The notes beneath the pieces were generated by a model that was not told the origin of the DNA, ran no database searches, and was given only the letters and a program-made list of their open reading frames with translations. A DNA stretch of 64,000 nt from Psammoneis japonica (taxonomy: Eukaryota), in contig QPGO01000104.1 of NCBI GenBank assembly GCA_008632985.1, positions 124,001 through 188,000 of the forward strand. The letters run 5' to 3'. The position numbers and the translations under genes are program-made. Shown in pieces: positions 3,892-61,130 of this stretch (position 1 is its first letter; each line of letters opens with the position of its first letter).

Positions 3892-4122
3892 CCCTCCTTG
3901 ACTTCTCGCTGTAACGCACCATGGCTTGTCACGTCACAACTCATTTTTTCCCATCTGTAGAAAAACAACCTTTGCAATCAGTTGTTCATGCTCAAAGGTG
4001 TCAATCATTGCAACGCACTCGATTCATTCTCACCCATTGATGTTTTCATTGATTGGAAGAACACAATGCACCCATGTTTTCGTGCCAATTCATGTCGTGT
4101 TTTCCTTCCTTGCCGCCCAAAC

Positions 4123-7205: not shown

Positions 7206-7364
7206 GTTCATTGTCTGCGGCGAGTCAAGACTCCTCCGAATCCAATGAACTTAGTTCTTTCTCCGCGTCAAATCAACAATCCTCCGAAGACAATGAGCTA
7301 AGTTCATTGTTTGCGGCGAGTCTAGACTCCTCCGATGACAATGAGCTAAGTTCATTGTCCGCGG
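7181..7364. repeat. 48-bp tandem repeat (~4 copies) with internal 23-bp imperfect palindrome gacaatgagctaagttcattgtc
   Basis: Palindrome copies start at 7193, ~7241 (degenerate), 7289 and 7337. Confidence 0.85.
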
Positions 7365-9828: not shown

Positions 9829-10996
9829 CAGACACAGGTGGAAAGGCAGAAGGCGGGAGGTGGGGGGGGTTTCTTACCATCGTACAAACAGGTGCCATCC
9901 TTGCGGGTCCTCCTAATTTTCCGTTTGGTTTTGGAGTTGTAGATTCGTTTGTCATCATCTTCCAAGCAGTCGGCCCTCTGACCATGCATTCTGCAACGGA
10001 GCATTGTGAGCTGCTTGCTGTGCCCAGGTTGGATGCCAATTTGCTCCTTGGGACAATGCTTCCCAAATTCGTGATTCAACATGGAATTGATTTTTTCTTC
10101 ACAAGCCTCACGGCGTGCAAGGGAATTGCCTTGCATTGTCACCGTGTTCTTTGTGTTGCCGGTTGAGTCGTCAAGGAACCCTTGATCTCATCTGCCTGGG
10201 CACCAGGATTGTCAGTGTCGCATGCAACCAGAAAGCTGTTGACAAAGAGGCGCCATTCCTTTGGGTTTTGATGTGACGGAAAATCTTCAAGAACCAATGG
10301 TCCATGTCCTTGGGCTTGCACTGAACGCAACGCATGACGATGTCAGTGACAAAACAGGCACTGTGGAGGTCTTGGGCTCGATCGTTGATCAAACTTTGGA
10401 GACTTTTGCACCGTAAAAATTGGAAACAAGGCTCACCAGATAAAGGATCGTTTGGGTCATCTCCGGCAATGATCGCACAAACAAATTCCACCATCGCCTG
10501 GATGTTGCGGTGAAGAAGCATGTGGTCATGCTGTTCTTTTTCTGTCTCTCCGGACATTTTGGAGAAATGCAGAGCCTCCTCGAGATTTTTATGTCGCAGG
10601 ACATGTTCGCCTTTCGCACGGCGGGATTTCTCAATGGACCAACCACGAGTCATGATGCAGGACCAAATGTCGGGATAGCCAAGGGTTTTCCTCACAATGT
10701 CATTGGTGCGGATTACTTCGGCAACATGAGGAACACGGCATGACTTCGGCTTGTGACAAAGGAAGGGAAGAGCGAGGAATTCTGGAGAGGGGGGTCCAAT
10801 TCGTTGACTCCAAAAACTTCTTTTTTGAGGCACGCATTGCAGTTGTGCTTTTGAGCTTGGGTTGGAACAATTCGAATCCAAAACCATTGGTGAAACATTC
10901 TGTTTCATCAAAATTTAAGTCCTCGGTAATTTGGAAAGAAGGGTCAGGGTCGACCTCGTCGTCAGACGGGGTAAAGTCGTCAGATGCCATGGCCAA
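9798..10996 (-). pseudogene. Frameshifted protein-like ORFs, probably the 5' part of the cargo gene or a further cargo gene
   Basis: Overlapping minus-strand ORFs 10700-10996, 10171-10911 and 9798-10142 with acidic N-terminus MASDDFTPSDDE. Confidence 0.35.
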
Positions 10997-11030
10997 CAGT
11001 CAGTTGCCGATTCACGTAGAATGTGCAGGA

Positions 11031-11089
11031 TTCACAACAGTGCACCCTCTCGTCAAAAGCATTTTGGGGAGAGGGTGCACTGTTGTGAA
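11031..11089. repeat. Perfect 21-bp inverted repeat (hairpin)
   Basis: ttcacaacagtgcaccctctc (11031-11051) and gagagggtgcactgttgtgaa (11069-11089), with a 17-nt loop. Confidence 0.9.
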
Positions 11090-12209
11090 ATGGGTGGAGA
11101 ACTGCGCATGTAGAAAAGGCACCAAAATGCAGGTAGGGGCCCATTCACTGGACAACTGGAGCATCCAGGTGGAAACAATGAGACAGTGTTCCTCTGGGCA
11201 ATTGCGTGGCCGACTGGGGTGAGGGAGAAATGCCATCATCTGTGGTGACGCAAGGCTGCGGTGAAGCCATTGAAAAGCACTGTCAAAGTTAACGATTCCA
11301 CAAACATGTGAAAAATTGATCAAAACAAAAAGCATCATTCAACAACAAAGGGATTGTTGAAATTCTTTGGTGACTTAAAAGCAAAAAAAAACGGCAACAA
11401 TTGCCAACATAAAATGGCAACAACAAATGCAAGTTGACTGTCAAACAAATGATGCAACATTGCCAAATTTAGCACACATTTGTCAAATTAAATGTTCCAA
11501 AATTTTCCAAAGGAAAGTGAACAACACCATGTTGCGGCCTCTGATGCTGTGGCCACTTTTGCTGGCCACAGCCCCCCTTGCCAAGCTTGGTGGCCTGCCA
11601 TGCTGCTTTCATTGCAGCAAAATCAGCAACTCCAAGAGCCAAGCTGCAGGGAGAGGACCCTCCCCTGGGGTGGTGGCCAGCTGGGCTCCCGTTGACTGCA
11701 ACAAACTTCTTCCAGCTTTGGGCTGGGCTCAATTGTGCACACATTTGAAGCCAACAAAATGGTGCAAAAAGTCAGTCAGAAAGCAAAGTGCCAGTGCGCC
11801 ACACTTGGGTTGACAGCACACTCCTTTGCACCAAGCTCCTCTGCAATGCGCTGTCCACAGCCCCAGTGTTGCCAAGCTGGCAGAGCTGTGGAGCACACAT
11901 GAGGGAAGTCTTGTTGGCTGCAAAGCTGATGCCAGCACTTCCAGCCTTGCCTCAGTGGCCGCATTCATGCTGCGCACTGTTTTGCGACCTTTTCCAGTGT
12001 CATCATCTTGCCTTGTTGAGGTTGGGGCCAGTGCGCTGTGCTTTGAAGAAAGGAGCCTTCTGGCCATTCTCTTGCAAAGTCATGGGTGGCAGTCACATTG
12101 CAAGCTGGGGGCGCCACGGCCACGGACTCAAGCAGCTGCAGCCCAGCAACAACTGGAAAGCAAAGTCGCTGGTCCATCCAGCAACACTTCTCTCAACATG
12201 TGCAGATGC

Positions 12210-12954
12210 AGAATGCGTGGGGTTCATTTCCCAAGATCGGCGATCACGAGGGTTTGCATCCACCATGGAAGCTCTCGGATCTTTGGCGGAAGATGTGAAC
12301 AGTGTTTTTGTTCTTCAAGTTCGGGTTGAAAAATCTTGGAACATGGTGCAACTGCAGATGGATCCAATCTATGCCCTGACAGATTGTCTTGCTGTCTGAG
12401 AGACTGTAATTTGAACAATGTGGACACCCAGTGCTGCTCTGACGAAGATTGTTCATTAGCTGGGTGCGTTTGTCGCAGCAAAGAGTGTGTCTGCAACGGA
12501 GACTGCCCCGAGGTCACGTGTGAAGTTGATGATGTTGTCGGAGTATGTTTGCCGGCAGAGCAATGTAGTGGACTTCCAGCCCTATCGTCGCATGACTGCC
12601 CGGGTCTTGGCATGGCTGCTTGTCTTCCCGAGTCGTCTTTAGCTTGCTGTGCAGCAAGTGAAGCTGGCGTATGTTGGAACAGAATGTACCAGAGAGGCCA
12701 TTGGATTGATATACTGCCCCGACGGTCTTTCTTGTTGCCTTCCAGATTGCGACAAATCCGATCCTAGCGTCGAATGTTGCGACAACTCGGACTGCACAGA
12801 AGTAGATTTCGTGTGCTACGGAAACAAGTGCATTTGCGGTCATGAATGCTGTTCGGACAACGACTGTGGCGACATTGGCTACAGGTGCATAGATAATGAT
12901 TGTCGCATACAACGACGCTATTGGGGCACTTCCGGCACTTTACCACCACAGTGA
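12210..12954 (+). pseudogene. Cys-rich repeat protein (CCSDEDC / CP.gLSCCL.DC repeats), 5' part inside the TpA-depleted gradient, frameshifted
   Basis: ORFs 12336-12767 and 12649-12954 share the repeated CP.xLSCCL.DC..ECC..xDC unit. Confidence 0.5.
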
Positions 12955-19393: not shown

Positions 19394-20536
19394 CTAGTCA
19401 TCAGCAGTTACCAGAACGGAACGAACAGTTAAGCCGTCCATATAAAAGACATGGATAGCCTTGTCTCCAACATAGACAAGTGACTCATCGTCAACATCAC
19501 CATCGTTCATGAGATCTAGGACACTCAATGCGAGCTGCCTCTTGCCATATTCTACTGCAGCAGCACGAGCCTCCAGATTTGGTGTTCGGCGAACGCGGCC
19601 ATTCGTGCCGCCCAGTGTATTGTGCTCTCTTAATTGTCGACGAACATTATTTTGACATGTATAGTCATTGTTAAGTGGTTCAGCGGTGCTGTAGTCAACT
19701 CCATACCCCATATCTTGCAAACTAGCAATAGACACTGAAGAAAACGGATGTGTCGCAACAAAGGGGTCAAGTATTCCAGTCATGATCTCACTTCCGAGAT
19801 AAAGTTCATCCCAATGACCACGAGGTCCGAGGCCTGCGTCGTTCTCGATTGGGGGACATCCAGGACATCCCGTGAGATTCTGATAGGCATCGCAGGCGAA
19901 GGTGCCATTTTTGTACGTATAGTTGCTTCCGGCGCCCCCGAATCGACCAATCAACCCCAAATCATCCCACTGTGTTCCAATACCCACGCAGTGGCCGATC
20001 TCATGAGTAAGAACCGTTTCTAACAAGCCCAGTATTTCAAGCAATCTAATATCGGCTTCATCGATTGAAACGATTCCAATTGCGGGCAAGTCGGAATCCG
20101 ATCTCTGCCATCGTACTCCCGCAAAACCCAAATTTCCATCAAGCCCGTCAATTTGTTGCGTCCTGATGCAAATGAAGAGGTCATCAATGAATCTAGGCTT
20201 GGCACAACCAATGTCTCGAGACAGACCATGCCCCGTATCGGGAATGTCTTCAACAATTATGCTTTCCCAACGCGCGACGCTCGCATTGACAGCCGCTTCA
20301 AACGATTCACAAGGCACACCGCTATATCCGATATCTAAATTGTAAACTCGCTCTACACAAAAAATGAACACAAGCTCCTTTTCAGTGATAATGAATATGG
20401 CGCAGAAATCGTAGTGTGCACAGCTTTGCTTACCAGACTCTAGCGATGGCGCTGCCGTCGGACTCGCACTAGCCACGCGGCTGTTGGACAAAGCGAAAAG
20501 GAAGGGTAGGCCTAAACGATGCATAAACCACAACAT
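19394..20536 (-). CDS. Secreted zinc metalloprotease, leishmanolysin/M8-like
   Basis: HEIGH zinc motif, GHWDE, EIMTG Met-turn and SLQDMGY; hydrophobic N-terminus; GT-AG intron ~20353-20432. Confidence 0.85.
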   Translation of the reverse strand: MLWFMHRLGLPFLFALSNSRVASASPTAAPSLESGKQSCAHYDFCAIFIITEKELVFIFCVERVYNLDIGYSGVPCESFEAAVNASVARWESIIVEDIPDTGHGLSRDIGCAKPRFIDDLFICIRTQQIDGLDGNLGFAGVRWQRSDSDLPAIGIVSIDEADIRLLEILGLLETVLTHEIGHCVGIGTQWDDLGLIGRFGGAGSNYTYKNGTFACDAYQNLTGCPGCPPIENDAGLGPRGHWDELYLGSEIMTGILDPFVATHPFSSVSIASLQDMGYGVDYSTAEPLNNDYTCQNNVRRQLREHNTLGGTNGRVRRTPNLEARAAAVEYGKRQLALSVLDLMNDGDVDDESLVYVGDKAIHVFYMDGLTVRSVLVTADD

Positions 20537-21161
20537 TGACAAGTTTGCTACTTGTTGCTTGTTGCAAAACAAATTCAAGGGCGAAGCCCATATGTCCTCT
20601 GTTTGTTGGTGGCGGCTTGTGGGAGCAGTTCTAAAAGTTTTCGAAATTTTGAGATTGCCGCGAATTTTTTCAAACTTTTATGATATGTACAGACGTTAAG
20701 AATACTGAATTATTTTGAATAATAATGACCGAAGACAAACATTGCAATGTGAGCTTTCGCACCAACTCGACAAAAAACACATGATGTGGAGGACCGTGAA
20801 CTACAGTTGGCATGCCCTTGCTTGTAGAAAACTCTAGCTAGAGCTAGTTCGCACAAGACTTCAGATGGAGGATAGCCCCAATGCTAAAGGTAGAACAAGC
20901 AACACTGCCAGAAGGCCACTTGAAATACAAGAATGCTGGCAACAAGCATCTCAACCCCAAGCATCTGCTGGAGAGGCAGGGGGGGCACAGCAGCAGTCAG
21001 ATTGCGACGACTTCTCCCCCGTTGGTTCGTTCTCTGGCTCAGATCATTTGCATCTCTCTTTCTCTTGCACTTGCAATTTCAGACAAAGAATTGGTGAGCA
21101 GCATGACACAATGCTGAAGTTCAAGGCACGAGTGTCATGCGTGTCCCCTCTCTTTTGATGC

Positions 21162-22900
21162 TCACAATTCTGAATTTGTGCTCCAAGATGACCGCCTTGT
21201 GAAGCTCATCTGGGGTCCTTTAACTCGAGTGATCTCCAGCAGCTCTTGCTCTTCTGTTTGAGACGTTGAAGTCTCAGTGCATTTGACAATCTTGGGACAA
21301 CACAAAAATGGAGCCATGAGCCAGCACTCGCAATGATCCAGTCCTCGAAACACAAATGCTCCCAAGTCCTCCAATTGGTTGGTCTTGGCATCTTCAAAAT
21401 CTTGCACAGATGATCCATGTGTCCACAGGGCGGGACTCCTGAATGTCCAATGGGGTGATGTGGTCTTTGCCACTCATGAAAATCATGGAGTTTCTTTCCA
21501 ATGTTGCCAACAAAGAGGTTGCCTTGTGCCCAGCAAAGCTGATGTTGCACCACCCATTTTGCCATGTGGTCTGACCAAATCACAAATGAGACATCTCCTG
21601 GATGCAGTGCACACTGTGAATGACATGATTTTATGAGGGCTGCACATTGCAGAGACACAAACACAAACTGGATCAAGAAACATCAGTGCTGTGCAACAAA
21701 ATAACTTGGTGTGTGCTTTGCAACATGCAAGACAATGAACTCCCATGGGAATGACACTGAAATGTTGCCTTGTGATGTCCATGGCAAGCTGACATTGCAG
21801 CCAGTGATGCAGCAATCTGCCTGGGAGATTGTGTGGAGCCAGGCATGACCCACGATCAAAAGGCTGACAGCATCAACATTTCCCCAAGGAAGATCGGATG
21901 CTTGGTTTGGAGAAGTTCCCAAAGCAGAGGCAGATGCATGACAACACCCAATCCAATGCTGCCTCCCACAAGTCAGTCAATTTTGTCCACAGCTTTGGTT
22001 TTGTCTTGTTGTTTCTGATTGCTTGTACCCACACAGCCTGTTGGGACATTCCCAGAAGGTTGAAGAGGGCCAAGACATCTCTCTGTTGCAACAAACTCTG
22101 ACGGCACAACACGACCACTGAGTTGATGAAGAAGTCTGCCACCCTCAGCAACGTGGGTCAAGCTTGTGATTCCTTGGATGTTGCAAGGGCTCTCAGCAGC
22201 TTGAGGCTCATCTTTGATGCCTTTGTTGAGAACTCTGAGATGACATGGCTCTCTGGCAACAGCTTCTCCATCGCCAACATAGATTTTTGACAAGAGTGGC
22301 AAGCAGCGGATCATGAGCAATGGCAACACTCACAAAATTGCTGCAAACATGCTCAGCAACATTCAAAACAGCATTTGCACCTTCTTCCAACAACTTGGCA
22401 ATGTCCCTGACCAACCAGTCAATCCAAGATTTGGAGACCAACATCAGCCATTCTCCCCCAGAACCTTTGGCAGCAAGTGCTTGCTCTTTCAGCTTGCTGT
22501 GCAATTGAGCTTCACTTCAAGCACTGGCAAGCACCAGCGGATTCTCTGCTGGTCATGGTGTCTCCATCCAAGAAACTGAAGTCTCCTTTGTTGGCATCTG
22601 ACACAAAGTTGCACAAAAAGATGGGGCTCCCAGTCATTTCTGAAAAAAACCTTGTCAGCATCCCATCATCTCGGCTGCCTGTGGTGGCCAAGAAAGGCAC
22701 TGACTCAAGTGCTGAAGAGTATTTGTGACATCATTGGCTGCAAGCTGTTGACACATTTAATTGCAAGGTTGCAACCAATCTGGAAATGTTGAGTTCAGTC
22801 AACTGCAGAAGGCATGCAAGGAAAGCATGTGGTCAAAGCAAGCTGGCCCAAATTTTGCTTACCAAGGACCTGACATGCATCGACTTGGGCCAAAAAACTC
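21162..22900 (-). pseudogene. TpA-mutated paralog of the alpha/beta hydrolase at 35602-37494 (copy A); TpA-depleted domain 2
   Basis: WVVQHQLCWAQGNLFV and TRRSSWS match WAVQRQFCWARGNLFV and TRRSSWS; Tyr replaced by Cys/His; frameshifts. Confidence 0.9.
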
Positions 22901-23382
22901 AAACATTGCGTCATACGATCGGAGTTTATCAGCCGTATAGGCGGGGTGAGGTCGTTTTCAAGAACAACGTGGTCTAGCGGCAGCCGAGCGAAAGCAGCGA
23001 GTGTAACAAGAAGAGTCACAGCAAGAAGAAGGAGAAGACGAACAGCTAGAAATTTTAGCTGTAACCTAGAGAGTACCCATACTCGCGGCAGTTTCGGCTG
23101 GAAGTAGATGGACGTTTCTAGGTTGACGCATTTGAGCCGTATCTGTAATGCATCCACGTTAATAACTTCGTCTTCGATTGTATCCACCGCATCCTCGACT
23201 TATCGATTGTTTGCTGCTATCGCCGTTGTGACGGAAGCAATCGTCGTCCGATGAGTATGATCTTCTCTTGCATTATCAAGCTCAACATTTTTGCTTTGGA
23301 GAGTGTAGCCGGAACAAGTTGATTGGAATCACTTTGGGCGCGGAGAAAAGACTAAACTGAGTGAAGCCGTCTTCACTGCACC

Positions 23383-31025: not shown

Positions 31026-31139
31026 AAATCCAGTTTGCTTGCCCATCATGACAGATGCACCAGTTTTTGAGTTTTTTGGCAGCACTTGCTGCAGCGCTTG
31101 CTGCTGTGGTGCCACCACACAAGAACACACATGGGGGGC

Positions 31140-31870
31140 ATCCACCAGGACATCCCATGAGATTCTGACAGGCATCGCAGGTGAAGGTGCCATTTTTGTG
31201 TGTGTGGTTGCTGCTGGCACCCCCGAGTTGACCAGTCAACCCCAAATCATCCCACTGTTCCAACACCAATGCAGTGGCTGATCTCATGAGTGAGAGCTGT
31301 TTCCAACAAGCCCAACAATTCAAGCAATGGAACATTGTCTTCATCAATTGCAACAACTCCAATTGCAGGCAAGTCGGAATCCGATCTCTGCCATCGTGCA
31401 CCCACAAAACCCAAATTTCCATCAAGCCTGTCAATTTGTTGGGTCCTGATGCAAACAAAAAGGTTGCCAATGAATCCAGGCTTGGCACAACCAATGTCTT
31501 GAGACAGACCACACTCCGCATCAGGAATGTCTTCCACAATTGTGCTTTCCCAATGTGCTGTGCTCACGTTGGCCGCAGCTTGCAGCTTCAAATGATGATT
31601 CACAGGGCACACCACACTGTGTCCGATGTCTAAACTGCAAACTCGCTCTGCACAAATGATGAAGAAAAGTTCCTTTTCAGTGATGATGAACATGGCACAG
31701 AAATCGCAGTGTGCACAGCTTTGCTTGCCAGACTCCAGTGATGGTGCTGTCATCGGACTTGCACTGGCCACGTGGCTGTTGGACAAAGGGAAAAGGAAGG
31801 GCAGGCCCAAACAATGCACAGACCACAACATGGACAAGCTTGCCACTTTTCGCTTGTTGCAAAACAAAAC
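31140..31870 (-). pseudogene. TpA-mutated partial copy of the M8 metalloprotease (5' part, intron retained)
   Basis: ORF 31247-31924 aligns with the intact gene (HEISH vs HEIGH); splice donor GTAAG changed to GCAAG. Confidence 0.95.
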
Positions 31871-32456
31871 ACAAGTGGGGAGCCCATCTGTCCTCTGTTT
31901 GTTGGTGGTGGCTTGTTGAAGCATTTCTGAAAGTTTCGAAATTTTGAGGTTGCACCCAATTTTTTCAAACTTTTATGATGTGTGCAGACGTTGAGAATGC
32001 TGGGTTGTTTTGAATGATGATGACCAAAGACAAACATTGCAATGTGAGCTTTCGCACCAACTCGACAAAAAACACATGATGTGGAGGACCGTGAGCTGCA
32101 GCTGGCATGCCCTTGCTTGTAGAAAACTCTGGCCAGAGCAAGTTCGCACAAGACTTCAGATGGAGGACAGCCCCAATGCTGGGGGTGGAACAAGCAACAC
32201 TGCCAGAAGGCCACTTGAAACACAAGAATGCTGGCAACAAGCATCTCAACCCCAAGCATCTGCTGGAGAGGCAGGGGGGGCACAGCAGCAGTCAGATTGC
32301 GACGACTTCTCCCCCGTTGGTTCATTCTCTGGCTCAGATCATTTGCATCTCTCTTTCTCTTGCGCTTGCAATTTCAGACAAAGAATTGGTGAGCAGCGTG
32401 ACACAATGCTGAAGTTCAAGGCATGAGTGTCATGCATGTCCCCTCTCTTTTGATGC

Positions 32457-34200
32457 TCACAATTCTGAATTTGTGCTCCAAGATGACCGCCTTGTGAAGC
32501 TCATCTGGGGTCCTTTAACTCGAGTGATCTCCAGCAGCTCTTGCTCTTCTGTTTGAGACGTTGAAGTCTCAGTGCATTTGACAATCTTTGGACAACACAA
32601 AAATGGAGCCATGAGCCAGCACTCGCAATGATCCAGTCCTCAAAACACAAATGCTCCCAAGTCCTCCAATTGGCTGGTCTTGGCATTTTCAAAATCTTGC
32701 ACAGATGATCCATGTGTCCACAGGGCGGGACTCCTGAATGTCCAATGGGGCGATGTGGTCTTTGCCACTCATGAAAATCACGGAGTTTCTTTCCAATGTT
32801 GTCGACAAAGAGGTTGCCTTGTGCCCAGCAAAGCTGATGTTGCACCACCCATTTTGCCATGTGGACTGACCAAATCACAAATGAGACATCTCCTGGATGC
32901 AGCGCACACTGTGAATGACATGATTTTATGAGGGCTGCACATTGCAGAGACACAAACACAAACTGGATCAAGAAACATCAGTGCTGTGCAACAAAATAAC
33001 TTGGTGTGTGCTTTGCAACATGCAAGACAATGAACTCCCATGGGAATGACACTGAAATGTTGCCTTGTGATGTCCATGGCAAGCTGACATTGCAGCCAGT
33101 GATGCAGCAATCTGCCTGGGAGATTGTGCGGAGCCAGGCATGACCCACGATCAAAAGGCTGACAGCATCAACATTTCCCCAAGGAAGATCAGATGCTTGG
33201 TTTGGAGAAGTTCCCAAAGCAGAGGCAGATGCATGACAACACCCAATCCAATGCTGCCTCCCACAAGTCAGTCAATTTTGTCCACAGCTTTGGTTCTGTC
33301 TTGTTGTTTCTGATTGCTTGCACCCACACAGCCTGTTGGGACATTCCCAGAAGGTTGAAGAGGGCGCCAAGACATCTCTCTGTTGCAACAAACTCTGACG
33401 GCACAACACGACCACTGAGTTGATGAAGAAGTCTGCCACCCTCAGCAACATGGGTCAAGCTTGTGATTCCTTGGATGTTGCAAGGGCTCTCAGCAGCTTG
33501 AGGCTCATCTTTGATGCCTTTGTTGAGAACTCTGAGATGACATGGCTCTCTGGCAACAGCTTCTCCATTGCCAACATAGATTTTTGACAAGAGTGGCAAG
33601 CAGCGGATCATGAGCAATGGCAACACTCACAAAATTGCTGCAAACATGCTCAGCAACATTCAAAACAGCATTTGCACCTTCTTCCAACAACTTGGCAATG
33701 TCCCTGACCAACCAGTCAATCCAAGATTTGGAGACCAACATCAGCCATTGTCCCCCAGAACCTTTGGCAGCAAGTGCTTGCTCTTTCAGCTTGCTGTGCA
33801 ATTGAGCTTCACTTCAAGCACTGGCAAGCACCAGCGGATTTTCTGCTGGTCATGGTGTCTCCATCCAAGAAACTGAAGTCTCCTTTGTTGGCATCTGACA
33901 CAAAGTTGCACAAAAAGATGGGGCTCCCAGTCATTTCTGAAAAAAACCTTGTCAGCATCCCATCATCTCGGCTGCCTGTGGTGGCCAAGAAAGGCACTGA
34001 CTCAAGTGCTGAAGAGCATTTGTGATGTCATTGGCTGCAAGCTGTTGACACATTTAATTGCAAGGTTGCAACCAATCTGGAAATGTTGAGTTCAGTCAAC
34101 TGCAGAAGGCATGCAAGGAAAGCATGTGGTCAAAGCAAGCTGGCCCAAATTTTGCTTGCCAAGGACCTGACATGCATCGACTTGGACCAAAAAACTCAAA
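32457..34200 (-). pseudogene. TpA-mutated alpha/beta hydrolase paralog (copy B)
   Basis: Nearly identical to 21162-22900. Confidence 0.9.
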
Positions 34201-35601
34201 CAATTGCGTCATGCGATCGGAGTTCATCAGCCGCACAGGCGGGGTGAGGTCGTTTTTCAAGAACAAGGTGGTCTAGCTTCAGCCGAGCGAAAGCAGCGAG
34301 TGCAACAAGAAGAGTCACAGCAAGAAGAAGGAGAAGAAGACCCGCTAGAAAATTCAGGGAATGTGAAATGTGAAAAAGGACAATCTGACAAATTAGAGCA
34401 ATTGCACTGTGATGCATGCTCACCTGTTTGTTTGAAATTCCACCAGATTCTGTCCTGCCTCATTTTCTTTGATCGGATTGGCGCAAGAAGCGACGGGTGA
34501 AACAGTTGCAAAATTTTGACGGCGCTGCAGGCAAACCAGCGGCTGCAGGAGCCACCCAGGACTCCATGTCAGCATCCTCCATGGCAGTGTCGAGAGAACT
34601 GAAGGTGAGCATAGAGACATGCTTGCCAATGTCCACGTCCATCATGCCCATGCCATCAACGACCGTGATTTCACACTGAAAAGCAAAAAACAGTGGCACG
34701 AAAAGCAAGGGTCAGCTGGGGGAATGTGAAATGCTAAAAAGGACAATCTGACACTACAGAACAACAGCATTGTGATGCATGCTTACCTGTTTGTTTGCTG
34801 TTCCACCAGATTCCGTCCTACAGACGACGAAACGACAACACCGATTCTGTTGGTTTCGGTCGGTCGCGCATGACACAAGGCAAGAAATGCCGATGCGACA
34901 TCCGGCAAGTGAAGACGTGAAAAAACAACGCCAACGCAACAACAAACCAAACCAAGCTATCATAATACACTTTACCGTGTCAACGATCACCCCGTATTGC
35001 ATGGGGGTGCTATCTGTTGTAATGACTCGGAACGGCGACGTGCCATGTTGGTTGTCTTTTTGGTTGGGTGCTGCGTTGCGCGGCACGAAAAAAAAACGCG
35101 CGCGTGTCGCTGTGGTAAACAAAGAGTTAAGAACATTCAATTATTTCGAATCTACATGGCCGATGACAAATGTTGCTAACGTGAGCTTTCGCACCAACTC
35201 GAAAAAGTCACGCAAGACTTTAGATGGAGGATAGCCTCGACGCTAAAGGTAGAACAAGCAACACTACCAGAAGGCTGCTTGAAGTACAAGAATGCCGGTA
35301 AGCGTCTCAGTCAAGCATCTGGAGGGGGCAGCAGATTGCGACAACAGACCAGTTGGTTCATTCTCTGGCTCAGATAATTTGCGGCGCTCTCTCTTTTGTG
35401 CTCGTAATTTCAGACAACTCGAGTTCGCTGCCGCCAGTGCCGGGTATACAAGCTTTAAATGCCACAACTTTAACACTACTGTACCATAAACAAAAGGAGT
35501 CCAAGGAGCCGAGACCTCCGAAAGAAGCGGAAAAAATTGGCGGGCAGCGTAACGTAATAATGAAGTTCAAGGCTGATATGAACTCTCTTCGCTTTCGACG
35601 T

Positions 35602-37494
35602 TTATGCTGAATTTTTGCTCCAAGATGACCGCCTTGTGTAGCTCTTCAGGGGGCCTTCAACTCGAGTAACCTCCAGCAGCTCTTGCTCTTCCGCTCGAGC
35701 CGTTAAAGTCTCTGTGCATTCAACAATCTTGGGACAATACAAAAATGGCGCCATGAGCCATTCGCCATGATCCAGTCCTCGAAACACAAATACTCCCAAG
35801 TCGTCCAGTTGATTTGTCTTGACATCTTCAAAATCTCGCACAGAAGATCCATGTGCTCGTAGGTAGGACTCCTGAATATCCGATGGGGCGATGTGGTCTT
35901 TGCTACTCACGAAGATCACACACGGTTTCTTTCCAATGTCGTCGACAAAGAGGTTGCCTCGTGCCCAGCAAAACTGTCGCTGTACCGCCCATTTCACCAT
36001 CATGTCTGACCGGATCATAAATGAGATGTCTCCCGGATGCGGTAGGCTGTAAACGAGACGGTTTGTGAGGGTTGCATTGTAGAGACAAAAGCAAACTGGA
36101 TCAAGAAACACCAGTGCCGCGACAAAGCTTGGTGTGTATTTTACAACGTACGAGACAATGAAACTCCCATAGGAGTGACACTGAAACGTTGCCTTGTGAT
36201 GTCCATGGTGAGCTAACATTGCAGTTAGCGATGCGGCGATCTGCCTGGGAGATTGTACGGAGCTAGGCATGACCCAGGGTCGAAAGGCGGATACCGTCGA
36301 TATTTCCGGGAGGAAGATTGGACGCTTGGTTCGGAGAAGTTCCCAAATCAGAGGTAGATACATGACAACACCCAATCCAATGCCATGAACAAACACAATT
36401 GGTGTTTTATCCTCTTCGCCGTCATTTCCCAGTTTTCCATTATTTGGTTTGTAGTAATATGACGTGGCGCAAATCACATGTCTGCGAAAACCCAGACACC
36501 ACATTACCAACCGAAGCATAATCTCGGCTGGCACGACAATAAGTATGTGCAAAACGAGAGGAAATAGTTCGACTCCCAAGAGAGGATCCGAGAATGGACG
36601 TAGGTATCGTTGGGTGTTGGGAGGAGCACCGTCTCCTTCCACATTGCCTCTGTCCTCGTTTAGCACATTGTGGCATTCTGTGATTTTCCGCATGAGCTCT
36701 GCCAGCACAGCCGCGGGTAGATCATGGGACTCTGGTATCAATTGTTCCAACAACCGCCTGAAGCCCCTCAATTGCTTCATAATTTGACTTGAAGGAGCAG
36801 CTTTTGAAGCAAGCAAGGTATCATCTGTACTTTGCGAAGATTCGCTACCATCACTATTCTCCAGCTCGTCCTTGATGTTGCCAAGACTCGCCAACGGAAT
36901 AATGCTTGGGCGATGTGAGACACCGTTGCCATTTCCTCGATTGGTCTTGCGGAGCACTTCTTGAACGAATTTGTCAATCTGTTCGTGCTCTCGGTCCAGC
37001 AAGTGTTCTTGACTCCTCCCATCAAAAAAGCCCCAGGCTATAAAGTTTCTCAGGTCGTGTAGGGTAATACTGTCAATGTCTACATTATGGAACCATCTCT
37101 GAAAAAAGAGAGAAACATTGTCCTTTTCTGCTTCGAGCACTCGATCCCAGAGCGAGATTCGTTCCTCCATTGGCATAATAGGCGCTGCTTGTAAGGCAGC
37201 CTCCATTGGATCAATCGAGTCGAGATAAGCCAGTTTCATTCTCATACAAATGTTGAAGCATACTTCAAGACTAAGAGCAACAACCAACCACGTTGGGACC
37301 AACTGAGTAAAGGAAGAGCATACTTCATTGCCTAGTGACTCGGTGATGAAAACTTCGCAAAGGATCTTCTGCAATAAGATGATGGGTAGAGCTGCATTAA
37401 ACAAAAAGGTAAAACACAGATAAAGCGAGTCAACGCTGCCAATATCGTGCTGCCATGTGCTGAATCGGGAAGCCCTTCGGTTGGCAACTAACAA
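35602..37494 (-). CDS. Alpha/beta hydrolase-fold protein (probably with an upstream exon beyond ~37565)
   Basis: PIVFVHGIGLG, nucleophile elbow HSYGS, LVFLDPV, KD and GLDHG catalytic-triad-like motifs. Confidence 0.85.
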   Translation of the reverse strand: MLVANRRASRFSTWQHDIGSVDSLYLCFTFLFNAALPIILLQKILCEVFITESLGNEVCSSFTQLVPTWLVVALSLEVCFNICMRMKLAYLDSIDPMEAALQAAPIMPMEERISLWDRVLEAEKDNVSLFFQRWFHNVDIDSITLHDLRNFIAWGFFDGRSQEHLLDREHEQIDKFVQEVLRKTNRGNGNGVSHRPSIIPLASLGNIKDELENSDGSESSQSTDDTLLASKAAPSSQIMKQLRGFRRLLEQLIPESHDLPAAVLAELMRKITECHNVLNEDRGNVEGDGAPPNTQRYLRPFSDPLLGVELFPLVLHILIVVPAEIMLRLVMWCLGFRRHVICATSYYYKPNNGKLGNDGEEDKTPIVFVHGIGLGVVMYLPLIWELLRTKRPIFLPEISTVSAFRPWVMPSSVQSPRQIAASLTAMLAHHGHHKATFQCHSYGSFIVSYVVKYTPSFVAALVFLDPVCFCLYNATLTNRLVYSLPHPGDISFMIRSDMMVKWAVQRQFCWARGNLFVDDIGKKPCVIFVSSKDHIAPSDIQESYLRAHGSSVRDFEDVKTNQLDDLGVFVFRGLDHGEWLMAPFLYCPKIVECTETLTARAEEQELLEVTRVEGPLKSYTRRSSWSKNSA

Positions 37495-38148
37495 AATTGT
37501 TATATTAGAGATTCAACTTTCACAATACGTCAGAGAAAAAGGTATTTCGCGAGGAGGTAACTTACGTTTTTGCTGCTAATCTGATCCAGCTCTCTGGAAT
37601 GTCTGGATGAAAATCGACGACTCATCTCTCACGAGTTGAAGAATACGTTGCGTTGTGTGTTCTACGGTATGTGTGTTTGTTGTGGAAAGCAAGTAACAGA
37701 TACTGTCGTAATCTCACACATAAAAGAGGCAAGGAACTCCGACGGTCACCTCAAAGATCGTCCTTCATTTTATTGGCATGCAGAATTTTTTTGGAATTTT
37801 GGATTTGCGTTATATTCATATTCACTGCTTTAGCATTTATATATATCCCTGCTTATTTTTCACGAGCTCTAATTTGCACAGAAGCCACACGCTGGTTTCT
37901 GTGCATTTACGTAGATTTTGTACCAATCGCATCGTAGAGGGGTGCTGTTCGCCGGCCCTGACGAACTCTTTCTCAGACATAAAATACTTTTCACGACGGC
38001 CGGCACATGACTGCCGGCTCGGTGGACACGTTTCGAGTGCGTTTTCACGTAGATCCTACTGCAGATGTAGGCACTCAGATTTAATTCGGTACAAATCTAT
38101 GCAGGATTTTGCGTAGGGTGCACACGAGCCACCAGGTGGTTCGTGTCA

Positions 38149-39680
38149 CTCCCTCGGATCGTAACATATTTCAACTGGCGCACAGAGAGATTTCTACGTG
38201 ATTTCTACGTACCTCGTACGAATCACGTAGCCGTAATAGCACAAAACGTCTGGCCTCCACCCCAATCCCATGCCGGCAACACTCCACACTCCCGCCCATT
38301 TATTGCACCGGCCGGCACCAAGAGGTTCGATTCTCTCATGCTTTTGAACTTCATTCAGCACCCCGTCTACTCACCACCAGTCCAAAACAACACGAGTGCA
38401 TCTCTTTCAACTGGAAAGTTGATTGACAGAAGAGTGAAGAAAGACCTCTTTCAGAACTTTTGCTCTCTTGACTGTGCCAGCATGATGCAAGTGTGACGAA
38501 TCGGGAAACTCGGGTCGAGTCGTCGACACGGCCGGATTGAAGTCAAAAGGAGGTCCGAAGGAAAACAAAACAAATGAAGAGCCAAGAGAGTTGCAACAAG
38601 ACTGTGAAAAGATGCCAGCTCGATTCCCAGACAAAGGTGACTCGATGCAAAAAATCGACACTGCTCATTGCATGGAGTGATCTGAGTGACAAACCCCGGC
38701 CAATCGCACGACACTTTGCACCTCGGGCAAGAACAAAGCCCACCCAACAGTGTCTGAACAATTCCCACAGGAGTGATGTTTCTGTCACCAATCTTCTCCA
38801 AATCAAACATTGCCAGCACAACCACGCACACGTCCTTTTCCCACCTGCAAATGCTCCTTGAAACCAACTGATCCACCACGAATGACATTGTTGTAACCTG
38901 CAAAGATGTCCTCCAAGAGATTGATGTCTTTCGACCTCCCAATGACACCAAGTTTTCTGGGTTGTCAAATGGATCAGGGTGTCCACAATGTCATCGGATG
39001 CAGAGAGGTCTTCAAGGAATTTCTTGCAAGGCCACCCAGCTTGCCAGAGAACTCACACACCGTGTTTTAATGCATGATCCATGAACACCACTGTTTGCAT
39101 CATCAACATGTTCCACAAAGTAAATCATGAGGCCCTTTCATGGGGAAGAATCTGCGCGCGGACCGAGAAACAAACAGAGTGAGTGTCGGACCGCTGTCGT
39201 CTGTTGGAAACACACCAACCACGAGCCGCGACATCCAGAGCTCGTCTCAAACACTCCAAAGGTGCCGCGCACATCAGCGCCTTTCATCTGTGTTTGTTGT
39301 GAAACGAGTGAGGCACAGGCAAAGGGATGAGAGGAGGGAAACAACAACAAACTCGACAAAACATGCCGGAACGACGACAACAGCAGCAGACTCATGCACC
39401 GAAGGAATCGAAATCGACATTCTTGCGCGGAGCGGTGCTTGTCAAAATTCAGCCAACACGCAATGGTGCCATGGACAAATGTCGACAATGTCCTGAGTGA
39501 CTCACCTCGTGAAAACAGGTGACAACGACGGTGGACGCGAAACAAATTCGCCATGGTGGCCACGCAAATTCTGCGCAGAATTTTTCGTTTTTGTGCCAGG
39601 AACCAAAAAAATCGCACGTTGCGATTTTTTTAAGCTGTGCCAGTTAGCCTGGTACAGCGTTATGTTACGATCCGTGGGAG
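38149..39680. mobile_element. Non-autonomous TIR element (~1.5 kb), interior TpA-depleted
   Basis: 20-bp TIR with 1 mismatch: ctccctcggatcgtaacata (38149-38168) and tatgttacgatccgtgggag (39661-39680). The CTCCC terminus is mariner/Stowaway-like; no clean TSD. Confidence 0.7.
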
Positions 39681-56654: not shown

Positions 56655-56759
56655 TAGATCAACTGTTGTTTGGTTGCAATGTTCTTTGAGTTGTGATGTG
56701 ATAATAACGACCACTGACACGCGGTTCGCAAAGTGGTCTTTGATTTGTGATGTACCGCG

Positions 56760-59700: not shown

Positions 59701-61130
59701 AAACAGTCTGCAATGGTCATTTTCTTCAATGTCTTGTGTGTGCTGCAACATGAACACTTGAAATTTGCATGCTGCACGAGGCATGAACAAGCCACATTTT
59801 TTCTTTAGACATGATTGGGTTTGTTGCTGTGAGCATTGTTGATTTGCATCAGCTTCATTGACAAAGAAAACATTTGAAAATTTGAAAATGCGGTCTTGGC
59901 CTCACAAGATTTTTTTCTCACCATCAGCCACAAGAGAGATGTGATTGAGTTGCACTGTGTGCAATGCTTTGGATGTGGCAACCCAACACCATGTTGCAGC
60001 ACTGTCACTCTTGCTGTCTGCTTTTTTTAAATCACAATGATGTCACAGTCATCAAAAAAATGATGCCAGAGTGGGGCAGAGTTTGGAAGCTGATTGTGAC
60101 CATGTTGCTCATCACTGTCATCTTGGCCAATGTGTGTGCCATCATCGCCAAGCAAAACAATGGCAAACACATCAACACTGCCCCATTGGAAAAGAATGTG
60201 CTGAGCCTCAAGACCTTGCCCAAAATCATGGAGCTCTAGTTTGAACTTGCCCGGATCCATCTGGACCTTGTGGAATCAGACAGCTGGGACCTTGACCATG
60301 CCAAGACCCTGGAAGAACATTGCCAACTGAGAGTCAATCTGCTGTGTGACTTTGTTGACAATGCAGTCAACACAGTGGGGATGAAACCTGTGTTTTCAAT
60401 GCTGTGGCACCACAGCAAGCTTCTGAACGTGCACAGCACAATTGCACACTTTGAAAGGAACCTCATTGCCAAGTTTTTTGCTCAGCTCTGCCACAACAAG
60501 AACCATCAGCCCCACTTTGTTGCGAAGCACGCACCCAACAACTGCAAGAGCTGTTTGATTTCCCATCAGATGGGCCACTCTGCTTTGGCTGTCCATGGTG
60601 GATGTTTCATTGGGTGGGTGCAATCACCACCAAGAAGATGCTCAAGGACAGCCACCTCCAGATTGACACATGCACAGACACAAAAAATGAATGGAGGCAA
60701 ACAGGAGGATTGGAAACACCTCAACAGCCTGAAGGAGGCACCAATGGCTGTCATCAAGTGGATGTGTGACAAACCCTGCATGGAGCTCATGACAAACCAC
60801 AATCTTCATGGATTCATCTGGCAAGCCATCATGGCCCAAACCATGCCTCACATGGACACCTGCCCTGCCAACTTTGCCTGGAGCATGGGCTCTGGTGAGA
60901 GTGTTGCAGCACCTCTCCGTGTTTCACCCATCATCACTTGTGATCCCTGGGGTTCCTCGCACCAAGAGGATGATTGTTGGCTGTGTCACCATGGTGCAAA
61001 TGTTTTGTCTGCAGATTGGCACACCGTCATCAAGACATTTCAAACGTCACGTTCGATTGGACCCATCTTTGCCGAGCTTTCTACGAGCGAGCGAAAACAC
61101 TTGAATTGATCAGATGCGTGGACGACCGCT
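56760..61130. mobile_element. TpA/CpG-depleted domain 5, probable decayed mobile element (family not recognised)
   Basis: About 4.4 kb nearly devoid of TA; Tyr-free fragmentary ORFs; repeated ctgacac(g/a)cggttcgcaaa at the left edge. Confidence 0.5.

What the first reader, a model, noticed from the sequence alone, without database searches (positions are those of the whole stretch)
31920..34320. Mutations come in same-strand runs, suggesting a processive enzyme (TadA/ADAT-like signature)
Seen: tgatatgtacagacgttaagaatactgaattattttgaataataatg (20681-20727) becomes tgatgtgtgcagacgttgagaatgctgggttgttttgaatgatgatg, nine A->G changes all on the + strand. gctaaaggtag becomes gctgggggtgg (~32178-32188), converting non-TpA adenines too. 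Elsewhere tttatcagccgtatagg (~22925) becomes ttcatcagccgcacagg, all T->C. Established: tRNA A34 deaminases (TadA/ADAT2) edit an A preceded by U, and TadA-derived base editors prefer TA. Inference: a strand-coordinated DNA adenine deaminase, or equivalently a thymine-modifying enzyme on the opposite strand. Retained introns argue against editing of a spliced RNA intermediate.
Basis: partly seen in the sequence, partly recalled or inferred. Interest (0 to 1): 0.85.

Follow-up and report, generated by a model that had tools for sequence, protein, structure and literature searches.

The report
TpA-erasing hypermutation domains in a diatom

Summary
The three quoted examples are in the sequence exactly as described. 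They belong to a 3.2-kb duplication: A at 19850-23058 and B at 31132-34357. Wherever A has TpA or CpG, B has TpG or CpA, and the reverse almost never occurs. A third, intact paralogue (C, ORF 35602-37512, minus strand) and 40 diatom homologues show that TA and CG are ancestral. The real changes are therefore A:T to G:C at TpA, plus CpG decay, in the broken copies. This is the opposite of fungal RIP.

The pair is only the edge of a larger pattern. About 45% of the window lies in sharply bounded domains with TpA observed/expected of 0.01-0.15 and TG+CA of 1.5-1.9. These domains gave no Pfam hits and contain high-copy repeats.

The same signature was measured directly in Bigelowiella natans (bioRxiv 10.64898/2026.01.13.699255). 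Here it is in a diatom-like genome, close to saturation, on host pseudogenes and repeats, and mostly accompanied by CpG loss.

The "same-strand runs / processive enzyme" claim is not supported:
- 43 of 80 adjacent polarised events lie on the same strand.
- One run of ten has P of about 0.02-0.04.
- TG and CA are equal in number and randomly interleaved across the domains.

The enzyme could not be tested, because no genome is held. It could be an adenine deaminase or a thymine modifier.

The parts
31132..34357 (+). Copy B of the 3.2-kb duplication. It is wholly TpA-purged and CpG-poor and contains the finding's coordinates.
   Evidence: blastn 93.7% identity to 19850-23058; 98.2% identity after purine/pyrimidine recoding; dinucleotide classes
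19850..23058 (+). Copy A. Its flanks (19850-20926 and about 22860-23058) keep the ancestral TpA and CpG.
20927..22860 (+). TpA-purged core of copy A (a single TpA between 20927 and 22719). It is about 99% identical to B and is probably a gene-conversion tract or a younger copy.
   Evidence: TpA positions. Differences that are not of the CG/TA type: about 16 of 2132 columns in 20931-23058 against about 48 of 827 in the 5' flank.
31929..32131 (+).
   Evidence: P 0.02-0.04
35602..37512 (-). Intact alpha/beta-hydrolase gene C (636-aa ORF), the unmutated paralogue of the hydrolase pseudogenes in A and B. Homology to A and B covers 35126-36718.
   Evidence: Pfam PF00561; tblastn shows stops and frameshifts in A and B
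19394..20677 (-). Intact 427-aa ORF whose first part lies in copy A's unmutated flank. The counterpart in B is broken.
   Evidence: distant homologues, 36-40% identity
24999..34734 (.). TpA-purged, CpG-poor domain that contains copy B, a roughly 190-bp tandem array (about 28900-31030) and high-copy repeats.
   Evidence: read-depth peaks
1..12370 (.). TpA-purged domain with only moderate CpG loss (observed/expected 0.6-0.7 over 1001-11000). It holds a degraded copy of an unnamed multi-copy protein family (ORF 8356-9873, minus strand).
38238..39630 (.). Small TpA-purged domain with normal CpG content.
56754..61081 (.). TpA-purged, CpG-poor domain.

Best explanation
Copy B lies in one of several sharply bounded chromosomal domains of a diatom-like nuclear genome. 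Two context-specific transition processes have acted there on double-stranded DNA in place.

(1) A TpA-specific A:T->G:C hypermutation turns nearly every TpA into TpG or CpA. Each dinucleotide is hit once, on either strand with equal probability, and no strand persistence can be shown.

(2) CpG->TpG/CpA decay of the kind that cytosine methylation causes.

The targets are silenced, repeated or pseudogenised DNA. Active genes beside them are spared.

Shown: the direction, the contexts, the near-saturation, the domain structure and the equal use of both strands.

Inferred: that process 1 is an enzymatic, chromatin- or silencing-directed editing of DNA like the one measured in Bigelowiella natans. 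The chemistry would be adenine deamination to inosine at 5'-TpA, or oxidation of the thymine so that it mispairs with G. The TA-free core of copy A probably reached A by gene conversion from B.
For: Polarity:
- 40 diatom homologues favour C's residue at 71 of 85 C-vs-A amino-acid differences (A at 8, ties 6).
- For within-codon TA(C)->TG/CA(A) changes, 12 of 13 favour C and 0 favour A. Tyr385, Tyr455 and Tyr488 are Tyr in 40 of 40 homologues and His in A and B.
- C agrees with A at the mid-region sites.
- A and B hydrolase copies carry stops and frameshifts.

Rates, taking A as ancestor over 19850-20930:
- TpA: 43 transitions at 98 T-sites, that is 43 of 49 dinucleotides.
- CpG: 32 of 111.
- Other contexts: 1.9-8.0%.
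- C->A: TpA 29 of 59, CpG 36 of 90.

One hit per site: of 50 C=TA sites, 41 are TG or CA in B and only 1 is CG.

Heritable, not noise: A and B share the same outcome at 34 of 34 TA-derived and 45 of 45 CG-derived sites. K-mer contigs of run X1, at depth about 30, match four TA-low stretches of 395-1072 nt with no other letters.

Domains:
- 129 TpA in 29,004 nt (4.45 per kb) against 1514 in 34,355 nt (44.1 per kb).
- The loss of TA (-39.6 per kb) and CG (-30.5) is balanced by a gain of CA (+32.8) and TG (+30.1).
- Edges are sharp to tens of bases.
- 0 of 71 ORFs tested in TA-low domains reach a Pfam cut-off, against 9 of 45 in normal domains.

The TpA process is independent of CpG loss: domains 1-12370 and 38238-39630 keep CpG.

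Control repeat pairs in normal DNA show no asymmetry and have about equal transitions and transversions.

Precedent: in B. natans, 230 of 231 de novo mutations in two integrated viral regions are A->G or T->C and fall on TpA (abstract, Results and Discussion read).
Against: - No enzyme, base modification or ongoing mutation can be observed from one window.
- No viral or transposon domain was found in the TA-low DNA, so the 'foreign DNA' targeting of the B. natans case is not reproduced.
- Targeting is not simply by homology. A's 5' flank is duplicated yet unmutated, and B's domain extends beyond the duplication on both sides.
- A slow, non-enzymatic context bias in unrepaired heterochromatin cannot be excluded.
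- The read support comes from one run, which may be the assembly's own sample.
- The 5' flank has about 8-fold more background divergence than the core. The A/B pair is therefore a mosaic of ages, and rates per unit time cannot be derived from it.
Confidence: 0.7

Rival explanations
1. One reading: a processive, strand-coordinated DNA adenine deaminase (TadA/ADAT-like) slides along one strand and converts many adenines in a row.
For: One run of ten successive TpA->TpG changes at A 20632-20835, with P=0.020 among the 52 A->B events. The A->B runs test is marginal at P=0.06. The 5' neighbour preference is T >> A > G > C. That this fits tRNA A34 deaminases is recalled knowledge and the argument of the preprint.
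Against: The C->A set shows no clustering: 18 runs against 16.0 expected, P=0.83. Pooled, 43 of 80 adjacent events are on the same strand. TG and CA are equal (27/25 and 15/15). The TG/CA series of all five TA-low domains are random, with z from -0.89 to +1.30; my estimate is that only about a third of TG/CA there derive from conversions, so power is limited. CpG-derived outcomes are also unclustered. The run was picked out after the fact.
Confidence: 0.1
2. The chemistry is on thymine. A TET/JBP-type or other modification of T in TpA (5-hydroxymethyl- or 5-formyluracil) mispairs with G and gives T->C. Because TpA is its own complement, the sequence outcome is identical to adenine deamination.
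For: The outcomes are symmetric (TG = CA) and there is one hit per TpA. The minor contexts TpT and TpC are raised. TTTA->CCCA-type strings, such as B 32181-32183 read on the other strand, could arise stepwise. Recalled and not checked here: dinoflagellate 5-hydroxymethyluracil sits mainly in TpA and TpC, and 5-formyluracil is mutagenic towards T->C.
Against: No sequence evidence separates it from adenine deamination. No such enzyme or base is known to me in diatoms. No TET/JBP domain was hit in the window ORFs scanned.
Confidence: 0.2
3. Fungal-type RIP: C->T at CpA created the TpA in copies A and C, so that B is the unmutated form.
For: Diatom DNMT4 enzymes are related to fungal RID and have no known function (PMC9998398, passages read). 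Read backwards, the A/B differences look like CpA->TpA.
Against: The polarity is the opposite. The TA-bearing copies are the intact ORFs with conserved Tyr, Ile and Leu codons. The TG/CA-rich copies are the broken ones. TA-low DNA has TpA observed/expected of 0.01-0.15, which is the reverse of RIP's TpA enrichment.
Confidence: 0.01
4. Artefact: modified bases in heterochromatin are misread as G or C by the sequencing chemistry, so TG/CA are miscalls of TA.
For: The TA-low unique stretches have about half the k-mer depth of the neighbouring normal DNA: about 30-36 against 58-72. The platform of the run is not on record.
Against: Contigs built from exact 31-mers reproduce mixed TG and CA outcomes within tens of bases, with no other letters over 395-1072 nt. 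A and B share identical outcomes at 79 of 79 polarised sites. The same copies carry real stops, frameshifts and indels.
Confidence: 0.03
5. RNA editing followed by reverse transcription: the TA-low blocks are retrocopies of hyper-edited transcripts.
For: Clustered A->G changes with a 5' U/T preference resemble ADAR-type hyperediting (recalled).
Against: Both strands are changed equally. The blocks are up to 12 kb. They cross intergenic DNA and parts of two genes, and end inside homologous segments. The 115-nt segment that C has and A and B lack (35417-35531) has no GT..AG ends on the gene's strand.
Confidence: 0.03
6. No dedicated system: a slow, context-dependent mutation bias (TpA and methyl-CpG both unstable) accumulates in old, unrepaired, non-recombining heterochromatin.
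For: CpG loss mostly accompanies TpA loss. The 5' flank of the A/B pair is old, with about 3% transversions.
Against: TpA loss reaches about 90% where other non-CpG contexts changed by 2-8%. Two domains have lost TpA but kept CpG. Edges are step-like. Old duplicates in normal DNA, 18% diverged, show no TA asymmetry.
Confidence: 0.1

Closest known systems
TpA-restricted hypermutation of integrated viral DNA in the chlorarachniophyte Bigelowiella natans (Mettrop et al., bioRxiv 10.64898/2026.01.13.699255; abstract, Results and Discussion read)
   Same: Almost only A->G / T->C changes, at TpA, giving TpG or CpA. It is confined to regions. [quoted passage not shown] By that paper's thresholds (Rho TpA <=0.43, Rho CpA+TpG >=1.52, at least 3 consecutive windows), this window holds at least three clusters: 3001-6000, 25001-34000 and 57001-61000. 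The affected DNA is mostly unannotatable.
   Different: This is a diatom-like stramenopile, not a rhizarian. Depletion is close to complete (Rho TpA 0.01-0.15, against 0.45 for their NCLDV region). The targets shown here are host pseudogenes, a tandem array and repeats, with no viral signature. Most domains have also lost CpG, whereas C->T was 1 of 211 mutations in their region. About 45% of this window is affected, against 124 clusters in their whole genome. There is no live mutation measurement here.
Repeat-induced point mutation (RIP) of Neurospora and other fungi
   Same: Context-specific transitions that wreck repeated and duplicated DNA to near-saturation, in blocks, with associated cytosine methylation. 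Diatoms carry RID-related DNMT4 genes (PMC9998398).
   Different: The direction and context are the mirror image: TpA is destroyed, not created, and the change is A:T->G:C, not G:C->A:T. Only one member of the A/B pair is hit in the flanks, and the block does not follow the limits of the duplication.
Methyl-CpG decay in methylated repeats (vertebrates, plants, diatom transposons)
   Same: CpG->TpG/CpA on both strands. CpG observed/expected is 0.07-0.33 in three of the five domains. Both A and B lose CpGs in the shared core, 7 each way.
   Different: It explains only about half of the differences. It cannot produce TpA->TpG/CpA, and two TA-low domains keep their CpG.
ADAR-type hyperediting / tRNA adenosine deaminases (ADAT2-ADAT3, TadA)
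   Same: A->G changes with a preference for a 5' U/T. ADAT2 of trypanosomes and amphioxus is reported to act on DNA, as cited in the preprint.
   Different: The substrate here behaves as double-stranded DNA in place. The strands are hit equally, and there is no single-strand or transcript polarity. No enzyme could be examined.

Membership tests
B. natans-type TpA hypermutation | Changes are almost only A->G / T->C transitions | tested here: met
   At ancestral TpA there are 43 transitions against 3 transversions (A->B) and 29 against 3 (C->A). Polarity.
B. natans-type TpA hypermutation | Mutated base lies in a TpA dinucleotide | tested here: met
   43.9% of TpA T-sites changed, against 3.1-8.0% of T in other contexts. 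A weaker excess at TpT and TpC is a difference of degree.
B. natans-type TpA hypermutation | [quoted passage not shown] | tested here: met
   Windows 3001-6000, 25001-34000 and 57001-61000
B. natans-type TpA hypermutation | Targets are integrated viral or other foreign DNA | tested here: inconclusive
   0 of 71 ORFs in TA-low DNA reach a Pfam cut-off. The family of ORF 8356-9873 has 125 homologues, but none of the 18 scanned reaches a curated Pfam cut-off. One scan of viral contigs found no relative. Host-gene pseudogenes are clearly among the targets.
B. natans-type TpA hypermutation | Ongoing, episodic de novo mutation at about 1000-fold the background rate | not testable with these tools
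   Needs mutation-accumulation lines or strain series.
Fungal RIP | G:C->A:T transitions, mainly CpA->TpA, leaving TpA-rich DNA | tested here: not met
   Opposite direction. TpA observed/expected is 0.01-0.15 in the affected DNA.
Fungal RIP | Both copies of a duplication are mutated over the duplicated length | tested here: not met
   A's flanks are unmutated, and B's block extends beyond the duplication.
Fungal RIP | Dependence on a RID/DNMT4 cytosine methyltransferase homologue | not testable with these tools
   No genome is held.
Processive single-strand deaminase tracts (APOBEC kataegis-like or ADAR hyperediting-like) | Neighbouring events fall on the same strand far more often than by chance | tested here: not met
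   43 of 80 adjacent pairs are on the same strand. Runs tests give P=0.06 and 0.83. Domain series give z from -0.89 to +1.30.
TadA/ADAT2-like DNA adenine deaminase | Presence of a deaminase-fold protein (HxE...PCxxC), with evidence that it acts on DNA | not testable with these tools
   No genome is held. No deaminase domain was hit among the 116 window ORFs scanned.
Methyl-CpG decay | CpG->TpG/CpA on both strands with CpG depletion | tested here: met
   32 of 111 (A->B) and 36 of 90 (C->A) CpG C-sites changed. TG against CA is 21/18 and 25/20. Methylation itself was not measured.

The most novel reading that the evidence does not exclude
Diatoms have a genome-defence or silencing-linked DNA editor. 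It recognises the TpA step in double-stranded DNA of heterochromatic, repeated or pseudogenised domains and converts A:T to G:C until the domain is essentially free of TA. This erases TAA and TAG stops and Tyr codons. It acts independently of cytosine methylation but usually alongside it. Together with Bigelowiella, this would make TpA editing an old, widespread SAR-group counterpart of fungal RIP, with the opposite chemistry.
Probability: 0.55. Interest if true: 0.85.

Novelty: new member of a known kind. Interest (0 to 1): 0.7.

Why it matters
If this is real, it is the second lineage, and the first stramenopile, with TpA-directed A:T->G:C hypermutation of nuclear DNA.

It also shows the end state of the process: multi-kilobase TA-free blocks with step-like edges. 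That makes the process easy to map in any assembly with a simple dinucleotide scan. It gives a clear phenotype for finding the unknown enzyme, which could be a natural editor of adenine, or of thymine, in double-stranded DNA.

There are practical consequences:
- TA-free DNA loses two of the three stop codons, so gene finders will call long spurious ORFs. This window has 117 ORFs of 120 aa or more.
- Repeat and pseudogene ages, and homology searches, are distorted. Y->H/C changes are an example: Tyr is 0.4% in the degraded ORF against 2.3-4.1% in 18 of 19 relatives.

Equal use of both strands without persistence constrains the mechanism. It points to independent single hits on duplex DNA, not to sliding on an exposed strand.

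Tried and rejected
- Whole-genome work was not possible: no genome is held. Earlier notes: none for this genome.
- The homologues of ORF 19394-20677 were too distant (36-40% identity) to polarise the 5' flank.
- Naming the organism: the PyShell ORF's best database identity was 78% (P0018, over 79% of the query; 75% for the top-scoring hit), and no listed hit was identical. The nearest named hits for the hydrolase are pennate diatoms at 43-49%.
- Collateral-repair idea: non-TA/CG differences are not nearer to TA/CG events than random sites. Observed 9.76 nt against 7.63 nt, P(<=observed)=0.99. Rejected.
- Flanking bases as a predictor of which strand is hit: no consistent effect.
- Purine/pyrimidine-recoded self-comparison of the window found no further hypermutated paralogues beyond A, B and C and the repeats already known.
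One metagenome scan with P0201 and one viral-contig scan with P0203 each found no relative.
- The protein atlas and the cluster look-up were unavailable, so the sources of P0202, P0203, P0209 and P0127 are unknown.
- Sequencing runs: no RNA holder was listed, so nothing can be said about expression. Runs X2 and X3 covered little or nothing.
- Literature: no paper on RIP-like or TpA loss in diatoms was found in the searches 'diatom' + 'repeat-induced point mutation', 'diatom/TpA/dinucleotide/transposable elements', 'TpA/TpG/CpA/hypermutation/deaminase/alga' and 'TpA depletion' + 'diatom'. The preprint's supplements are closed and were not seen; they may hold strand or clustering data.
- The 115-nt segment present in C but not in A or B (35417-35531) was checked as a possible intron. 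It has no GT..AG ends on the gene's strand.
Full report
**1. Observation**

The window holds a direct duplication: A at 19850-23058 and B at 31132-34357. They are 93.7% identical over 3229 aligned columns, with 181 mismatches. A third, partial and older copy, C, lies at 35126-36383 (about 80% identity). After purine/pyrimidine recoding, the B/C match runs to C 36718.

- Nine A->G differences at A 20685-20724 / B 31980-32019.
- gctAAAggtAg -> gctGGGggtGg at B 32181-32187.
- Three T->C differences at B 34225, 34234, 34236.

**2. What the differences are**

Classed by dinucleotide (sites within two columns of a gap were left out), the A/B differences fall into two main classes.

5' part (19850-20660), 114 differences (88 transitions, 26 transversions):
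- 29 are TA in A against CA/TG in B.
- 29 are CG in A against TG/CA in B.
- The reverse CG class has 2, and the reverse TA class has 0.

Middle part (20661-20930):
- 14 of 22 differences are TA(A) against CA/TG(B).

3' part (20931-23058), 41 differences in 2132 columns:
- 9 are TA(A) against CA/TG(B), with 0 in reverse.
- CG<->TG goes 7 each way.

The same pattern separates C from A and from B. C has CG where A has TG/CA 34 times, and TA where A has CA/TG 25 times. The reverse counts are 1 and 2.

Two other old repeat pairs act as controls: 16766/17801 and the inverted PyShell gene pair. They have about equal transitions and transversions (54/50 and 58/60) and no TA asymmetry (8 against 5, and 5 against 4).

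**3. Direction**

C sits in an intact 636-aa ORF (35602-37512, minus strand) with an alpha/beta-hydrolase domain. The A and B versions have in-frame stops and frameshifts.

I collected 74 homologues of the C-terminal 297 residues. The named ones include the diatoms Seminavis, Epithemia and Cylindrotheca. I aligned the best 40 of the 74.
- At 85 amino-acid differences between C and A, the homologues favour C at 71 and A at 8, with 6 ties.
- For changes where C has TA inside the codon and A has TG/CA, 12 of 13 favour C, 0 favour A and 1 is tied.
- For CG the counts are 15 of 18 for C and 3 for A.
- Examples: Tyr385, Tyr455 and Tyr488 are Tyr in 40 of 40 homologues, with codon TAT/TAC in C and CAT/CAC in A and B. 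Leu433 is TTA in C and TCA in A and B, and Leu in 40 of 40.

In the three-way alignment, of 50 TpA in C:
- 34 are TG or CA in both A and B.
- 7 are still TA in A but TG/CA in B.
- None is TA in both.

TA and CG are therefore ancestral.

**4. Rates**

With A as ancestor over 19850-20930:
- TpA: 43 transitions at 98 T-sites counted on both strands. That is 43 of 49 TpA dinucleotides destroyed. B keeps 3.
- CpG: 32 transitions at 111 C-sites.
- T in TpT 8.0%, TpC 5.4%, TpG 3.1%.
- C outside CpG: 1.9-2.9%.

From C to A the figures are 29 of 59 for TpA and 36 of 90 for CpG.

Almost every TpA has taken exactly one transition. TA->CG, a double hit, is seen once in 50 sites. The target is therefore the intact TpA step.

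**5. Strand runs**

Because TpA is its own complement, each site can become TG (A->G on the plus strand) or CA (A->G on the minus strand).
- A->B: 52 events, 27 TG and 25 CA. There are 21 runs against 27.0 expected from shuffles, one-sided P=0.06. The longest run is ten TG, at A 20632-20835. Such a run has P=0.020 among these 52 events and 0.043 among 82 pooled events.
- C->A: 30 events, 15 and 15. There are 18 runs against 16.0 expected, P=0.83.
- Pooled, 43 of 80 adjacent pairs share a strand.
- CpG-derived outcomes are also unclustered (P=0.52 and 0.30).
- The nearest flanking bases do not predict the outcome.
- In the five TA-low domains, the series of all TG and CA dinucleotides has runs z-scores of +1.30, -0.40, -0.34, -0.65 and -0.89, with near-equal counts, for example 1090 TG and 1037 CA in 25000-34500. 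That test is diluted by TG/CA that were already there, so it only argues against strong, long tracts.

One notable run exists, but strand coordination is not shown.

**6. The larger picture**

One-kb and 250-bp profiles and TpA coordinates show that the window is a mosaic.

TA-low domains:

| Domain | TpA observed/expected (1-kb windows) | CpG |
|---|---|---|
| 1-12370 | 0.03-0.34 | 0.6-0.7 over 1001-11000 |
| 20927-about 22860 | 0.04-0.15 | 0.25-0.33 |
| 24999-34734 | 0.02-0.21 | 0.07-0.72 (0.07-0.32 up to 34000) |
| 38238-39630 | 3-5 TpA (250-bp counts; positions) | normal by 250-bp counts |
| 56754-61081 | 0.01-0.04 | 0.08-0.22 |

- In the TA-low domains TG+CA is 1.46-1.93 over most of their length. 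It is lower (1.30-1.40) in 9001-11000 and in the small 38238-39630 domain.
- The rest of the window has TpA 0.43-0.87, CpG 0.8-1.3 and TG+CA 1.0-1.3.
- G+C content is the same in both kinds of DNA, about 0.48.
- Overall: 129 TpA in 29,004 nt against 1514 in 34,355 nt.
- Per kb, TA is down 39.6 and CG down 30.5, while CA is up 32.8 and TG up 30.1.
- TAA and TAG fall from 9.7 and 9.1 per kb to 2.0 and 1.2. This explains the many long overlapping ORFs.
- The edges are steps of tens of bases.
- Surviving TpA are enriched in TTAA (0.46 of the normal density) and CTAA/TTAG (0.29). They are nearly absent as ATAT (0.009) and ATAC/GTAT (0.010). This is either a context preference or new TpA arising later.

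The two domains that have lost TpA but kept CpG show that TpA loss is not a by-product of CpG methylation decay.

**7. What the TA-low DNA is**

- None of the 71 ORFs of 120 aa or more that I scanned there reaches a Pfam cut-off. In normal DNA, 9 of 45 do. These are the hydrolase C, a signal peptide peptidase, histidyl-tRNA synthetase pieces, two diatom pyrenoid-shell genes, a CBM protein and a VTT-domain protein.
- ORF 8356-9873 (minus strand) has 125 homologues at E<=0.001 in the representative library. None of the 18 that I scanned (of the 125) reaches a curated Pfam cut-off; one has two sub-threshold matches. The ORF has 0.4% Tyr, against 2.3-4.1% in 18 of the 19 aligned homologues. That is the expected effect of losing TAY codons.
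- Contigs of public run X1 pile up to depths of about 800-1900 on 25841-26680 and 29621-30040, and to about 370-740 on 34241-35080. Parts of the B domain are therefore high-copy repeats.
- The domain also contains a tandem array of about 190 bp per unit and the two host-gene fragments of copy B.

No viral signature was found.

**8. Is it an artefact?**

- Exact-k-mer contigs of run X1, at depth about 30, match TA-low stretches of 1072, 395, 931 and 421 nt with no other letters.
- A and B carry the same TG-or-CA choice at 34 of 34 TA-derived sites and at 45 of 45 CG-derived sites.

The states are therefore inherited sequence, not stochastic miscalls.

Two caveats remain. The run may be the assembly's own sample, and its platform is not on record.

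**9. History of the A/B pair**

The core 20931-22860 is about 99% identical between A and B and is TA-low in both. The flanks on both sides are 9-14% diverged, with TA and CG kept in A.

Differences that are not of the CG/TA type number about 48 in 827 columns in the 5' flank, against about 16 in 2132 in the 3' part. Transversions are 26 against 10. These other differences lie no nearer to TA/CG events than random sites.

The simplest reading, which is an inference, is that the core was homogenised later, by gene conversion from the mutated B into A or by a younger copying event. That would also explain why A's TA-low block ends inside the segment that is homologous to C.

B's block extends beyond the duplication on both sides, and A's duplicated 5' flank is untouched. 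A's flank holds the start of an intact 427-aa ORF. Targeting therefore follows a chromosomal domain, not the limits of homology.

**10. Comparison with what is known**

A 2026 preprint on Bigelowiella natans (10.64898/2026.01.13.699255; I read the abstract, Results and Discussion, and searched its text) reports mutation-accumulation lines with these features:
- 231 of 302 nuclear point mutations fall in two integrated viral regions.
- 230 of those 231 are A->G or T->C, and these fall on TpA.
- The rate is about 6e-7 per site per generation, and only some lines show it.
- There are 124 clusters of TA-low, CA+TG-high windows in the genome.
- The authors propose an ADAT2-like DNA adenine deaminase and draw the parallel with RIP.
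- The text holds neither 'diatom' nor 'Phaeodactylum', and neither of its two uses of 'strand' concerns runs.

The present case meets that signature (see the membership test). It differs in these ways:
- Lineage: pyrenoid-shell genes with Pfam E of 1.6e-94, and hydrolase homologues from pennate diatoms.
- Near-saturation.
- Host pseudogenes and repeats as targets.
- Accompanying CpG loss.

Diatom DNMT4 is related to fungal RID and has no known function (PMC9998398, passages read). The chemistry here, however, is not that of RIP.

My four literature searches found nothing on TpA loss in diatoms.

**11. Mechanism and verdict**

Most likely (about 0.7): a domain-directed, TpA-specific A:T->G:C editing of duplex DNA, with independent single hits on either strand, plus ordinary methyl-CpG decay.

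Sequence cannot tell whether the lesion is on adenine (deamination to inosine, my estimate about 0.4) or on thymine (oxidised T mispairing with G, about 0.2).

Its central claim of same-strand, processive action is not supported.

The phenomenon itself is striking, and outside one preprint it is unreported. I rate it a new member of a known kind, with interest 0.7.

Noticed in passing
window 25001-37600: Unique TA-low stretches have k-mer contig depth of about 30-36 in run X1. The adjacent normal DNA (35501-37600) has 58-72, and the A/B-shared core has 73-91. The TA-low block may be hemizygous, or its two haplotypes may differ too much to share 31-mers.
   Followed up: no
window 45404-46264 (-) and 49893-50489 (+): Two diatom pyrenoid-shell (PF25192) genes sit in inverted orientation, about 82% identical at the DNA level and about 3.7-4.3 kb apart. 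Their differences are symmetric, with transitions about equal to transversions.
   Followed up: partly
window 4123-5831: A perfect-length tandem duplication of 855 bp (98.6% identity) lies inside a TA-low domain. All 12 differences are transitions: 8 are CG<->TG, and 4 form two sites where one copy has TG and the other CA. That pattern fits independent resolution of one ancestral CG or TA.
   Followed up: partly
window 28900-31030: A tandem array of units of about 190 bp (62-84% identical) lies inside the TA-low domain. Its units show TG in some copies and CA in others at the same columns. It continues copy B's broken leishmanolysin-like gene on the minus strand and may once have encoded repeated Ig-like domains. 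The distant homologues of ORF 19394-20677 carry PF02369 and PF01457.
   Followed up: no
window 1001-4000: There is strong strand asymmetry inside a TA-low domain (GC skew -0.23 to -0.33, AT skew -0.16 to -0.41), with long overlapping ORFs on both strands. The cause is unknown.
   Followed up: no
window 1-64000: There are 117 stop-to-stop ORFs of 120 aa or more, many overlapping in several frames inside TA-low DNA. TAA and TAG are about 5-8 times rarer there, so automatic gene calls in such blocks are likely to be spurious.
   Followed up: partly
P0209 (homologue of ORF 8356-9873): One database homologue (387 aa) also has almost no tyrosine: 0.5% against 2.3-4.1% in the other 18. It may be another TpA-purged copy from this or another organism. 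Its source could not be looked up.
   Followed up: no
window 41566-44407 (-): The histidyl-tRNA synthetase is split over three ORFs (core, core, anticodon-binding). An aromatic amino-acid lyase match lies in the same long ORF as the first piece. Introns or two adjacent genes may be read through.
   Followed up: no
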